From Eledone cirrhosa (taxonomy: Eukaryota): a DNA stretch of 64,000 bases. Below, one piece after another: positions 6,601-12,600 of the stretch; positions within the stretch are counted from its first letter, which is position 1, and each line of letters begins with the position of its first letter. A program made the translations under genes and the position numbers. The stretch lies in NCBI GenBank assembly GCA_964016885.1, contig OZ024749.1:41230001-41294000 (forward strand), read 5' to 3'. A model generated the notes under the pieces. That model had not been told where the DNA came from. It saw only the letters and a list, made by a program, of their open reading frames with translations, and did no database searches.

Positions 6601-9600
6601 ATCGGTGCCTGTTGTGTAAATAAAGAATAAAGATTAACAAGGATTTAAATTAAATCATTTACTTGATTTACAACCATTTCATTAGACTAACTAGAATATT
6701 CTATTCCTGTTAGAATAAGTTCATCAGAATGGATTAAATACAAATAATATGTACCTTATATGCCCATAAATTATAGTGTATGTATGTATGTATGTATGTA
6801 TATATATATGTATATATAGTGTATGTATGTAGATATATGTATGTATGTATGTAAATGTTCAAAATGCTAACTGTTTGCAAGCATGCCATTGTTATGTTTG
6901 TCTATAACCAGTAAAGCTAATTATCGCCCAGCCTGTATACTGTATATAAAATATAAATATTATTGTAGGTGTTGCTATAGTAATTCTGCTGGCTGCATGT
7001 CGACTGAATTGAGGTTTGAACAGAGAGACACCATTGCATGAAGACATTTGAAATAGGTTAAGATAAACATATATTAATTTAACTCTTATTCCTATCAACT
7101 CTACATTACCTTTTTCTTGCTTTCTAACAACAAGCACCATTTTCTCCAAATGACTAGCACTCATATTATTATTATTATTAAGGCAGTGAATTTGCACTAT
7201 CGGTAGAGCATTAGACAACATATTTTGTGGCATATAGTTACGACCCTTTACATTCTGGTTTCAAATCCATGCAAGGTCAGCTTTGCCTTTCATCCTTACG
7301 GGGTCGATAAAATAAAATACCAGTGAGGCACCAGGGTTGATTTAATCGAATTTCCCCTTAGCCCAAAATTGCTGGCCTTGTACCGAAATCAAAAACCATT
7401 ATTATTTTTATTAAGGCAGTAGATTTGCACTATCAGTAGAGTGTCAGACAACATGCTTTCCAGCATATAGTTACAGCCCTTTACATTCTGAGTTCAAATC
7501 CTGCCAAGGTTAACTTTGCCTTTCATCCTTACAAGGAAAGCTGATTAAATCGACCCCAGTAAATAAAATACCATTACTGGTACTTTATTTTATCAACCCC
7601 CGTAAGGATAAAAGGCATAGCTAACCTACGCAGGATTTGAACTAATAATAATAATAAAAATAATTATGGTTTCTGATTTAGGCACAAGGCCAACAATTTC
7701 GGGTGTAGGGGAAAGTTGATTAAATCAACCCCAGTGTGTTACTGGTCCTTTATTTTATCAACCCCGTAAGGATGAAAGGCAAAACTAACCTCGGCAAGAT
7801 TTGAACTAATAATAATATGTTAGTCTTAATATTATCTCTTACTCTATGCAAAAATTATTTTTGTTTTTTTTTCCCACTAATCATTGTTTACTGCTAATAT
7901 CCTTTTTATTTTTTTACTAAAATATTCTTTTATTTATATCTCTGTATTAATTCCACTTTGATATCACTAACATTGAAATATATTATATATTAACTCTTAA
8001 CGTCCTGTACCACATGAAACCATATTAGCAAGATATTGATTGAAAACTATGAAACAACACTATCTACATCACATTAAAAATGTATGTCTTTATGTCTTAT
8101 ATTACAAATGTTCACAACGATCTCTCCACCAGTAAAGACACTAATACTATGAACATTTAAATGCAGTTGGTGTTAGGAAGGGCATCTAGCTGTAAAAAAA
8201 CCCCCAGCCAAATTTATAGTCCCATCAGAGCAAGGTACAGCGTGGCCAATCCTGGCCAGACTTGTCTCTCGACGCGGACAACCTGTCTGACCCATGCAAG
8301 CATGGGAAAATGGACATTAAACAATGATGATGATTTAGTACAAAACTCTATATCTACATCATACTACAAGTTAAAGACTTTACCCTTTCCCCTAATACTA
8401 CAAATTCTCACAACAATCTAGTAATGACACTATAAACATTTGAATTAATGGTTTCTTATATAGGCACAAGGCCATCAATTTTGGGGAGGGGAAAGTCGAT
8501 TAAATCGACCCTAGTGTGTGACTGGTACTTTATTTTATCGACCCCGTAATGAATATGTTTTAAGATATTTCCTACAAAATCATTTCTGGATGTTAAGAGT
8601 TACTATTATATTATATTATATTGTATTATATTGTATTAATATTATATTAATATTATATTATATTTGATTAGTATTAATAACAGCTTCCATATTTACTTCC
8701 CTCCACCACCAAGCACCACCAGACTGCACTGCATCTTCTCTTTGCTCTTTGCACTGCAATTACATGAAGAATCATTAAAGATGATGTTTTCACAGAAAAT
8801 TCTATTTCCATATTTTCATTTTCTGACATTTTTCACAGAAAAAAAATTGTTTTGCTTTTTTTTTCATGTTTGTTTTTTATTTTCTTGTTATCTTTTTAAT
8901 CCTTTCATGGCCATATTGTTCATGAAGTACTCTGTATTTTACTAAAATTGTTGTTCTATTATTAAGACAGTGTTTGTAACTTGAAATTACAAATGGCTTT
9001 TATACAAAATTATGTTGGAAAGTTTTGATTTAAATAGTACCCCTTTAAAATAGGTGGTTTTGTTTTATAAAACTGCAGGTGATTTGGGGTGGGGGCAGGA
9101 TGGTATTAAAAGGGTTAAATATAACAATTATCAACTAAATTTGTAAGTTCCTACATATAAGTTCCCAAATATGTTTTATTTTCTTAACCCTTTCGTTACC
9201 ATATTTATAATGAAATACACTGCCTATGTCCATAACCCTTTCATTACCATATTTATAATGAAACATACTGTCTCTGAGTTTCAATTAATTTTAATGATAA
9301 TAAAATATTGCAAATGTTTTAAAGCCATTTTCCATGCTAAAGCAGGAGTTAACCTTGCAAGCTTAATTATACTCATCATGTGGCCCTTTTGAGGCAACGT
9401 TTTATGGCTGGATGCTTTGCAGGCATTAAATGCTGATGATAGTGTGTGTGTGTATATATTGTTTGTGTTGTTATTTCTGTTTACCTTTTACATACATATA
9501 TATATATATGTATGTATGTAAAAGGTAAATAGAAATAACAACACAATCGGTACAGTATATGGAAGGGATATATTAGGTTAATGCTTGAAAAAGCAAGAAG

Positions 9601-12600
9601 AGGGTCTTAACGTTTCGGACGCTAGTCCTTCATCAGAAGAAAGAATGAGAAATAAGTTAGATTGAGGGGACGGGCAGGTTGGAATTGGAAAAAATGTCTT
9701 TAGATAAAAATAACAGGTCCATCCATGTTGACATCTCTTGCAAAGTGTACGTATATATATATGTGTGTGAGAGTATATGTATATACATATATTTGGAAAA
9801 AATAGACATTAAATAATGATAATAATAATATTTGATTTGAAAGTAATTTGCTACTTAGTCTATATATATATATGTTAATTATTTAGTTATTTTATTTAAG
9901 TAATTATTTATTTTAATCAATCTCTCCTAATTAATTAGTTGGCATTAATCATGAATGACCTAAAGCTTTGCTGTTTTATTATTATTACTATTATTATTAT
10001 TATCATTAAAAACATACTGTTACTATATACTCTGTGATTTTAAAAAGAAATTGTCTTTAATTAAATGTATGTATGTCTGTGTCTATGTACATGTTTTTGT
10101 GTGTGTATGTGTTCCCCTATGTCTTTGTGTGTGTATATGTCCCCCATGTCTATTTGTAGCTATGTGTGTGTGTGTGTGTATACATCTGTGTTTGTGTGTA
10201 CTTGTATCTGATATGTATTTGTAGCTATGCCTGTACCTCAGTGTGTATGTCTAAGCTTGTGTGTGTGTGTCAGTCATATCAACCCCAGTACTTATTTCTA
10301 CGTCTAGTACATATTTTATTGATATGTATTTGTCCAACTGCTAAGTTACAGGTTATAAACAAACAACAAATGTCAATGCTAGTTTCTACTTATCAAACAA
10401 AAATTAATTACATAGGCAGAGTCTGTTTACTTGTGCTCCTCTCTCCCCTCCCCAACTAATCTTCTTTGCATATTAATGAATTATCTGTCATTTCATGATG
10501 ATGATAATAATAATAATAATGTCTGTCTTCTATTTGTTTTGCTCAGAGATTCAAACCAGCAACGCATCATGTCTGGAGATTCCACCCAAATGATTTGGTC
10601 AAAATCTCTTCTTTCTCAACAACACCAGATTCGTCTGGATCGCAGGTAAGTCCTAATATACATCAATGCTAACTCTTTTGAATATTTGGGAGGTCACACT
10701 GAATTGTCACCGTCTTTTCATCTTACCCACAAGGTTCTGATCGACACTTGCCCAAGACGTCGCGCAGTGGGATCCTACCCACAATTTCAGGACTGCAAAA
10801 CAAAATTCTTAATTTTTCTTACAGCCTGTGTCAAAAGAAGGGGTGGTTTATAGTCTCATTAGATTACACTACCATACACACCACTCCTCCATACTAACAC
10901 AAGCATCTCCCACACAGACGTACACATACATACAGATAAACACTAACATGGTATATGTAAATCAGATAACTACAATAACTCTGTTATGTTTGGCTATGGG
11001 TAAATTTATTGTGTGTTTGTTATTGCATGAGTACATGTAAAAATATAAAGAGTATATGTATGTGTATATGTGTGCGTGTATATATATATATATATATATA
11101 TATATATATATATGTGTGTGTGTATATATATATATATACAGATAAAGTTTAAGCAAAGAATCGCTGCTATCACACATTTACAGGATCTTCACATTTATTA
11201 TTACTATACACATATATATATGTATATAATGAGGAGAACTCAATGCAAATGCCACTCTACTCCAACTCCATCTTTAAGAAAACTGTTTATATATATAATA
11301 CACATGTAATATAAATGTGTGTTTTTGCAGGAGTTTCCGTGCTGGCTCCCGTCCCAGTAGTCTCAAGATGAAATCATCAACAATGAAAGAAAATGGTGAT
11401 ATCCACGGTGTAACTTTAACTTCATCTCGTCGTACTGATGATTTTGATATCAAAGTTTGGCAACAGAGAAAACAACAAGCTGAATTCAAACGGTACATAT
11501 TTATTATATTCTTTTATTTCATCCTTTTACTGGTTTCACTCATTAGGCTGTGGCCATGCTGGGGCACCACTTTGGTTTAGTCAATGATTTAGCTGAAAAT
11601 ATCTAAAAACAGGTTTGTTAATTCAAATGTTTATAGTATTTTTACTAAATAGTTGTGAAAATTTGATGTACAAGAGTTAATAGTGCTGATTTGTACATTT
11701 CAAGTATTATCTTGCTAATGTGATTCCATGTGGTACAGGATATTAAGAGTTAATTACAGTTATTTTATCTTATTTATATGATGCTTTGACTCTTCTTTCT
11801 CTCTCCCTCTCTCTTGTTGTGTTATAATTATTCGTATAGAAAACTTTTCTGATGATATAAACATTAGCAATGTTCTCTAGAACTTTCTCTCCATTTTTCA
11901 TGTCATTTTAGGAGTCAACAGGAAGAAGAACTGCGAGAGAACCATCCTTACTTTGATACTCCACTCTTTGCAGTTGGTCGAGAATCAAGGTTCCGCAGAT
12001 TCTGTCAAATGGTTGTCAATGCTAGATATAAATATATGTTGAAGGATCCTGTTACTGGTAAAGAAATAATCAGCAGATCAAAACGTCTACAGTAAGTGTT
12101 GATCTATCTATATATCTATCTATCCTTTCCCCCATCTCTCTCTCTCTTTCTCTCTCTCTCTCTCATCTTATTTCTAATGAAAGACACTGCCTATGATTTT
12201 GAGTCCTGAGTTCATGGTTTATGTATGTCTGTGTATTTCCAAAGGGACTGAGTGATATATATCCACAATAAATCAGTAAATACTTTTACTGATATTGTCT
12301 GTATGTATGTGTTATATATCCTCTGTGATTGATGTACACACACACACACTTATATATATATATATATATATATATATGTATATATATATATATGACAAAG
12401 GACCGTGACGAATGGAGAGATACTGTGCTGAAGAAGACCCTGTCCCACCCTTGCAAGCAGGGAAAAGCAGACATAAAATGATGATATATATATATATTTA
12501 TTAAAATAACAGATTAAAGTTTAAGCAAAGAATCGCTGCTTTCAACCTTATCGGGATCTTCTTAAGATCCCGTTAAGGGTGAAAGCAGCGATTCTTTGCT

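What the first reader, a model, noticed from the sequence alone, without database searches (positions are those of the whole stretch)
9463..9750. Intact minimal dimer-type hammerhead ribozyme in a short repeat element antisense to NALCN
Seen: minus strand 9640-9605 has the full hammerhead core (CUGAUGA...GAAA, GUU triplet), 4-bp stems I and II, one extra A after the CUGAUGA box, and stem III reduced to the palindrome ACGU. The element end is also duplicated as a ~35-bp inverted arm across a (TA)n loop (9463-9546). Related copies sit near 52905-53095 and 62315-62545. Known: minimal type I hammerheads with a palindromic stem III are typical of Penelope-like element pseudo-LTRs and can cleave as dimers. 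Inference: a Penelope-derived or retrozyme-like non-autonomous family spreading self-cleaving RNA motifs; no RT or GIY-YIG ORF is visible in the window.
Basis: partly seen in the sequence, partly recalled or inferred. Interest (0 to 1): 0.72.

Follow-up and report, generated by a model that had tools for sequence, protein, structure and literature searches.

The report
Neptune retrotransposon stub with minimal hammerhead
This is a short, broken-off end piece of a known jumping gene (a Neptune-type Penelope-like element) carrying the already described minimal self-cutting RNA motif; it is one of thousands of copies in this genome and is likely an inert passenger in an intron of the NALCN channel gene.

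Summary
The motif is real: a minimal type I hammerhead at 9640-9605 (minus), the only strict hit in the window. Longer copies run from this sequence into an RT + zinc-finger linker + GIY-YIG ORF about 52% identical to a homolog matching published Neptune1_Ap, so this is the 3' pLTR of a Neptune PLE, not an independent retrozyme. The genome holds 2,279 exact copies of the 36-nt motif. The window copy is a solo monomer, antisense to NALCN. Its two neighbours are dead: one lacks the core, one lacks the cleavage triplet. Cleavage is untested; published min-hammerheads are inactive as monomers. In 87 sampled copies, 5' ends pile up 120-140 nt upstream of the cut, beside an Inr/DPE-like motif, and not at the cut. 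The (TA)n is the internal pLTR-to-5'UTR junction. Most stubs are therefore likely run-off cDNAs of the uncut 5' leader. The inverted arm is a rare (16 loci) tail-to-tail fold-back. The kind has been known since 2014, and this scan has noted it on other DNA many times.

The parts
9518..9744 (-). 5'-truncated 3' end (pLTR) of a Neptune-type Penelope-like retrotransposon, about 227 nt, 8 differences from the family majority in 221 positions
9605..9640 (-). Minimal type I hammerhead: stem I UCUU/AAGA, CUGAUGA + extra A, stem II GGAC/GUCC, palindromic ACGU in place of helix III, GUU triplet; predicted cut 9609|9608
   Evidence: matches the consensus in the PMC4209133 supplement
9713..9720 (-). DPE-like motif (7 of 8 match to the RGACGTGY element reported in Penelope), at +28 from an Inr-like CAGT whose A would be at 9747; the window copy starts 3 nt downstream of that A. 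Promoter role inferred.
   Evidence: found post hoc
9492..9517 (.). (ACAT)n(AT)n microsatellite at the element's 3' end; in tandem copies this tract is the internal junction between pLTR and 5' UTR
9463..9491 (+). Short inverted copy of the element's last 29 nt, tail-to-tail across the (TA)n; 1 mismatch to the main copy
52879..53225 (-). Longer copy of the same family (approximate ends) with a private 28-nt deletion of the whole hammerhead core
62300..62555 (-). Diverged sister-subfamily pLTR copy (approximate ends) with a decayed hammerhead (no UH triplet, G-U at the base of stem II)
2342..2485 (+). NALCN coding stretch upstream of the insertion (human residues 638-688)
11910..12062 (+). NALCN coding stretch downstream of the insertion (human residues 819-869)

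Best explanation
This is a 227-nt end fragment of an abundant Neptune-type Penelope-like retrotransposon carrying the known minimal hammerhead, likely made when the element's RT primed at the (UA)n tract of an uncut transcript and ran off near the transcript's predicted start, and it is likely catalytically silent where it sits. Shown: the motif; colinearity with an RT + CX4CxxC + GIY-YIG ORF; thousands of dispersed copies; a fixed 3' end at a microsatellite; partial tandems in which pLTR, (TA)n and 5' UTR are contiguous; a 5'-end peak 120-140 nt upstream of the cut. Inferred: an internal promoter at that peak, internal initiation at (UA)n, insertion by GIY-YIG nicking of (TA)n targets, and fold-back origin of the inverted arm. 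In source elements the hammerhead would act only as a dimer through the ACGU palindrome or with help from the PLE protein, as published for other PLEs; this was not tested here.
For: Five inspected longer copies extend into GIY-YIG coding DNA, and three of them into RT. 17 of 21 independent RT-selected loci continue to the hammerhead end. The ORF has DKG, GVAMG and YIDD RT motifs, the CSRSRCNTC linker and VVYALRCxxCxxxYIGQT. It is 52% identical over 371 aa to P0014, whose DKG block is nearly identical, by eye, to Neptune1_Ap in the PMC8557442 supplement. There are 2,279 exact 36-mers with reversed control 0 and 5,234 exact 3'-end 31-mers. 17 of 30 5'UTR-selected loci are directly preceded by the pLTR end via (TA)n. 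In the sample, 21 of 42 at-risk copies end in the -140..-121 bin against a baseline hazard of 0.08 (p 2e-12). 257 genome-wide junctions fall in a 5-nt window there, against 93 and 76 raw matches at the cut and at a control site. Across sister families, the core-proximal stem I pairs (not imposed by the search) covary: pair 6-35 C-G 10, U-A 2, U-G 2, unpaired 1; pair 5-36 U-A 7, A-U 4, unpaired 4 of 15. Published parallels: monomers inactive and dimers weak (PMC4209133); protein-assisted cleavage, uncut RNA as the template and internal RT initiation (PMC11167929); internal TATA-less promoter in the pLTR (PMC2377424, passages).
Against: There are no RNA data, so start site, expression and cleavage are untested. 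The 5'-end peak is broad (-147 to -125) and could be an RT stop or a microhomology hotspot. The DPE-like motif was spotted post hoc and was found upstream of only 1 of 19 hammerhead sites of the wider set, apart from one unrelated-looking hit. An untemplated cap G was not resolved (about 4 of 14 junctions at +1, hand count). Junctions at the cut are about 1.6-fold above the control (hand count about 62 vs 38), up to about 2-fold after rough normalisation, so a small cleaved fraction is not excluded. Pfam scores of the family's own broken ORFs lie below cut-off (RVT_1 E 2.5e-5, GIY-YIG E 0.009). No Neptune/Nematis tree was built.
Confidence: 0.85

Rival explanations
1. An independent non-autonomous retrozyme or SINE-like family that propagates as tandem or circular hammerhead RNAs using PLE enzymes in trans.
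For: Most copies are short (only 5 of 90 extend past -300). Short units of 5' UTR joined directly to a pLTR piece occur in 16 of 30 5'UTR-selected loci, 6 independent ones joined at the same 5'UTR position. One locus holds three hammerheads at about 513-nt period (L092) and another has a 390-nt repeat (L131/L132). A 2026 preprint derives retrozymes from PLE pLTRs (abstract, introduction and part of methods read).
Against: In the unbiased sample such tandems are 1 locus in 87, and 0 of 90 have the 5' UTR within 300 nt downstream. The pLTR side of the joins varies. Described retrozymes carry canonical type I hammerheads in 150-450-bp tandems (PMC7229834 passages). The window copy is solo.
Confidence: 0.08
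2. Ordinary random 5' truncation of cDNA started at the 3' end of full-length RNA, with the peak caused by an RT pause or microhomology rather than by a transcript start.
For: The peak is about 20 nt wide and junctions abut (TA)n flanks with microhomology. The ends of the 225-nt RNA can pair in the predicted fold.
Against: The fold is no more stable than shuffles (z -0.66). Hazard jumps about six-fold and coincides with an Inr-like CAGT and a DPE-like motif at +28 (9 of 532 CAGT sites in the window have RGWYV there; the RGWYV consensus is recalled). This rival changes only the mechanism, not the identity.
Confidence: 0.3
3. The copy was co-opted as a regulator of NALCN (antisense ribozyme or hairpin).
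For: It sits in a NALCN intron with an intact core and a near-perfect hairpin.
Against: The pre-mRNA carries the non-catalytic complement. Insertions of this family are expected about once per few hundred kb. 19 of 87 sampled copies also have the exact 36-mer, so intactness is unremarkable. The copy's divergence (8 of 221) is typical (median 4.7%). All miRNA-type Rfam matches to the hairpin are below gathering score.
Confidence: 0.03

Closest known systems
Minimal hammerheads (min-HHR) in pLTRs of metazoan PLEs, including Neptune (Cervera and de la Pena 2014, PMC4209133; parts 1-2 of 4 and supplement passages read)
   Same: U-rich leader, CUGANGA + extra nucleotide, G10.1-C11.1, palindromic CG in place of helix III, short helix I, location in the pLTR, thousands of mostly solo copies in several consensus families
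   Different: Helix II is 4 bp (7-8 bp in Schistosoma). This family was not found in the two supplementary files searched; one file could not be searched.
Neptune clade EN+ PLEs (Craig et al. 2021, PMC8557442; introduction, passages and supplement passages read), e.g. Neptune1_Ap
   Same: Single ~900-aa ORF, RT with DKG, CX2-5CxxC linker, C-terminal GIY-YIG with internal cysteines, (TA)n targeting, partial tandems and inverted copies
   Different: Here the (TA)n is also an internal junction of the tandem unit. No intact ORF among 150 scored of 24,663 first-look candidates (longest open frame 687 aa).
Poseidon of Anolis (PAc; Frangieh et al. 2024, PMC11167929; parts 1-2 of 4 read)
   Same: Copy 3' ends lie about 90 nt past the hammerhead cut (PAc: cut +26, RT start +111-118). 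Uncut RNA appears to be the template.
   Different: Different clade. The ORF here starts about 245 nt after the (TA)n, not inside the hammerhead. Initiation here is inferred from genomic ends only.
Non-LTR retrozymes (PMC7229834 passages; bioRxiv 10.64898/2026.07.22.740005 part 1 of 5)
   Same: Type I hammerhead, non-coding, PLE-related; rare short tandems of this family resemble them
   Different: The window copy is a solo truncated pLTR with a minimal, not canonical, hammerhead and no tandem array

Membership tests
min-HHR of metazoan PLEs | Core CUGANGA..GAAA..UH with no true helix III, palindromic 15.2-16.2 | tested here: met
min-HHR of metazoan PLEs | Extra nucleotide between A9 and G10.1; G10.1-C11.1 pair | tested here: met
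min-HHR of metazoan PLEs | Compensatory changes in stems across families | tested here: met
   15 distinct rows: stem II pair A-U 8, G-C 6, G-U 1 (letters limited by the search pattern); inner stem I pairs covary, outer two mostly unpaired; few independent events
min-HHR of metazoan PLEs | Location in the pLTR of a PLE | tested here: met
min-HHR of metazoan PLEs | Self-cleavage as dimer or with protein | not testable with these tools
   Folding prefers an alternative hairpin (-7.7 vs -5.9 kcal/mol monomer; -18.7 vs -9.9 dimer); the energy model lacks core terms
EN+ PLE, Neptune clade | Single ORF with RT and C-terminal GIY-YIG | tested here: met
   (own copies below Pfam cut-off; close homologs near or above it)
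EN+ PLE, Neptune clade | CX2-5CxxC linker and cysteines between GIY and YIG (CCHH) | tested here: met
   (L050, L054)
EN+ PLE, Neptune clade | RT closer to Neptune than to Nematis, Hydra or Naiad | tested here: inconclusive
   No tree. 52% identity to P0014, which by eye is nearly identical to Neptune1_Ap over one printed block; DKG not DKT
EN+ PLE, Neptune clade | pLTRs from partial tandems, 5' truncation, inverted copies, (TA)n targets | tested here: met
Non-LTR retrozyme | Tandem array of 150-450-bp units each with a hammerhead | tested here: not met
   window copy is solo; 1 tandem locus in 87 sampled
Non-LTR retrozyme | Canonical type I hammerhead with 6-bp helix I and loop contacts | tested here: not met
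   4-bp helix I, minimal core
Non-LTR retrozyme | Expressed circular RNA | not testable with these tools
   no RNA run available

The most novel reading that the evidence does not exclude
The copy ends of this Neptune family record its replication: transcription starts at an Inr/DPE promoter 140 nt upstream of the hammerhead cut, RT primes internally at the (UA)n tract (and at a second site about 24 nt into the ORF), and the thousands of ~230-nt stubs are complete run-off cDNAs of the uncut 5' leader. Template jumps between these sites build short hammerhead tandems that look like retrozymes being born.
Probability: 0.5. Interest if true: 0.45.

Novelty: new member of a known kind. Interest (0 to 1): 0.25.

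Why it matters
The motif itself adds little: minimal hammerheads in PLE pLTRs, Neptune included, were described in 2014. The modest value is mechanistic. If the 5'-end peak is the start site, it extends the internal-initiation, uncut-template model shown in vitro for one Poseidon element to a Neptune family. It would also explain how pLTRs and short hammerhead tandems arise, and give exact coordinates for a RACE test. There is no sign that this copy matters for NALCN.

Tried and rejected
(1) Rfam: no hammerhead model among the 150 listed of 171 matches; miRNA hits on the hairpin are below gathering score. (2) A ribozyme-less subfamily: the 28-nt core deletion of the 52.9-kb copy has 1 match genome-wide at up to 1 mismatch, itself. 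Rejected, though one similar junction shows. (3) A cleavage footprint: 8 of 78 at-risk copies end within -10..+9 of the cut, p 0.31. Genome-wide there are 93 raw matches at the cut (21 of 30 inspected are true junctions; the script called 23 and I reclassified 2 by eye) and 76 at a control GTT|AA site 27 nt downstream. By hand count the split between junctions at -2, -1 and 0 is the same at both sites (19:29:14 vs 11:18:9). No sharp footprint; a modest excess is unresolved. (4) Selection on individual copies: non-CpG mismatch is 3.6% in the ribozyme vs 5.9% in flanks (p 0.0003, 67 copies), but flanks include subfamily sites, so this reflects source elements at best. (5) ORF start inside the hammerhead as in PAc: that ATG is followed by a stop after 3 codons; rejected. 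(6) Promoter motif in sister families: not found. (7) Sequencing runs: no RNA holder listed. Contigs of three runs gave only short-sided joints across the insertion within microsatellite, not usable as an empty allele. (8) PDB search with the PLE ORF: no hit. (9) The 5'UTR counts were swamped by (TA)n matches and were redone. (10) Literature: searches 'octopus+Penelope+hammerhead', 'cephalopod+Neptune+Penelope-like' and 'Penelope/strong-stop/pLTR/run-off' listed no paper on this family or on run-off stubs; mostly listings only, and subscription journals and Repbase are not covered. (11) Search of this scan by sequence: nothing.
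Full report
Observation. The minus strand at 9640-9605 holds a complete minimal type I hammerhead with the predicted cut between 9609 and 9608. A strict descriptor finds it as the only hit in the window, and 2 of 200 shuffles give any hit. It matches the published metazoan PLE consensus (PMC4209133 supplement). NALCN coding stretches on the + strand flank it, so it is intronic and antisense. 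The 52.9-kb relative lacks the 28-nt core and the 62.3-kb relative lacks the cleavage triplet; no intact partner lies in the window.

Family. The genome is 3.0 Gb. From recall of genome size and microsatellite content it is probably a cephalopod; this was not tested. The 40 scored of 1,797 candidates are the window copy and 39 others at 94-97% identity. The exact 36-nt motif occurs 2,279 times, reversed control 0. An exact 31-mer near the 3' end occurs 5,234 times. A relaxed core pattern matches 9,954 places, including sister families with other flanks. All 29 other fetched copies end at the same 3' point followed by a microsatellite (by eye).

Parent element. Five longer copies chosen extend into GIY-YIG coding DNA, and three of them further into RT. 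A protein search scored 150 of 24,663 candidates; the longest open frame was 687 aa and no whole ORF was seen. Of 21 independent RT-selected loci, 17 continue colinearly to the hammerhead end. The element is about 3.5 kb: about 245 nt of 5' UTR, an ORF of about 900 codons, and about 600 nt of 3' region with the hammerhead cut 92 nt before the end. The ORF has DKG, GVAMG and YIDD, the linker CSRSRCNTC and VVYALRCxxCxxxYIGQT. Pfam hits for the broken copies are weak. The best homologs are 50-57% identical and carry RVT_1 and GIY-YIG. One of them, P0014 (52% over 371 aa), is by eye nearly identical to Neptune1_Ap over the block printed in the PMC8557442 supplement. The linker defines Neptune and Nematis. 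Neptune is thus well supported, without a tree.

Structure conservation. An alignment of 16 hammerheads (15 distinct) from this and sister families shows covariation. In stem II one pair is A-U 8, G-C 6, G-U 1, but the search pattern limited those letters. The two inner stem I pairs were not imposed and still covary (C-G 10, U-A 2, U-G 2 of 15; U-A 7, A-U 4 of 15). The outer two are mostly unpaired in sister families. These are few independent events. Nearest-neighbour folding prefers an alternative hairpin for monomer and dimer. That fits the published inactivity of monomers and protein-assisted cleavage in PAc, but does not test cleavage.

How the stubs arise. In 17 of 30 loci selected by the 5' UTR, the pLTR end runs through (TA)n straight into the 5' UTR (three pairs are duplicates). 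The microsatellite is therefore an internal junction as well as the target. I sampled 90 loci from the first 91 of 5,234 exact 3'-end matches and dropped 3 duplicates for the test. 70 of 90 keep the whole hammerhead and 5 of 90 extend past -300. 21 of 42 at-risk copies end between -140 and -121, against a baseline hazard of 0.08 (p 2e-12); the window copy ends there. Genome-wide, 257 junctions fall in a 5-nt window at that place. An Inr-like CAGT lies at -140 with GGACCTGT at +28, a 7 of 8 match to the downstream element reported for Penelope. The motif was noticed after the fact and is absent from most sister families. At the cut there is no significant pile-up in the sample (8 of 78, p 0.31). 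Genome-wide there are 93 raw matches at the cut and 76 at a matched control, with the same nucleotide-level split by hand count; an excess of up to about 2-fold is unresolved. The best reading is internal priming at (UA)n on uncut RNA and run-off near the start site, in line with PAc, where copy ends also lie about 90 nt past the cut. These steps are inferred.

Inverted arm. Tail-to-tail pairs with a spacer up to 36 nt occur at 16 loci. Among 10 inspected plus the window, three share private variants between arms or in the centre, and one palindrome extends into flanking DNA. This favours fold-back or self-priming at the palindromic (TA)n over two independent insertions. PMC3846280 notes that sense self-priming would give tail-to-tail repeats (passages). 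The window's arms differ at 1 of 29 sites, which does not decide between the two.

Short tandems. 16 of 30 5'UTR-selected loci join the 5' UTR directly to a pLTR piece. Six independent loci join about 24 nt into the ORF (one of them has only a short pLTR remnant). L092 carries three hammerheads at about 513-nt spacing. These resemble incipient retrozymes but are rare in the unbiased sample (1 locus in 87), and the window copy is not one.

Earlier notes of this scan. 1,179 findings hold the same key words. Several report run-off stubs or uncut templates in other genomes, and others report cut-site footprints, which I did not find here. They are unchecked leads, not support. My start-site and cut-site tests came before the look-up; the extra-G check was prompted by it and was inconclusive.

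Verdict. Observation confirmed; new member of a known kind; interest 0.25. One supplementary file of PMC4209133 could not be searched and might list this family.

Noticed in passing
window 12502-12620: Near-perfect ~119-nt palindrome, MITE-like; the same sequence flanks L026 and L050, so it is a repeat family
   Followed up: no
window 39686-39805: Rfam U5 match at 45.1 bits (gathering 40, E 4e-4) in AT-rich DNA; possibly a pseudogene or chance
   Followed up: no
window ~59850-61800: Tandem satellite of 26-nt units, about 95% alike, ~66 copies
   Followed up: no
window 9184-9273: Two direct ~45-nt repeats 47 nt apart with very high depth in laid contigs: another dispersed repeat
   Followed up: no
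L092 (G000:C4:365240997-365244185): Three tandem 5'UTR+pLTR units, each with a hammerhead, about 513-nt period; retrozyme-like
   Followed up: partly
L095-L112: Several sister PLE families share the core with GGGC/GCCC or GGAC/GUCC stem II and a 1-4-bp stem I, all ending about 90 nt past the cut at a microsatellite
   Followed up: partly
L057:7323-8501 (-): 393-aa RT + GIY-YIG frame of a different PLE family, inserted opposite to the Neptune copy
   Followed up: no
window ~53165-53150 (-) and long copies: Splice-acceptor-like polypyrimidine + CAG about 205 nt upstream of the cut in the 3' region; no matching donor identified
   Followed up: no
window 52975-53002: The private 28-nt deletion removes exactly C3-H17 and joins the two stem I strands across a TT microhomology, as a template jump across the junction would
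   Followed up: yes
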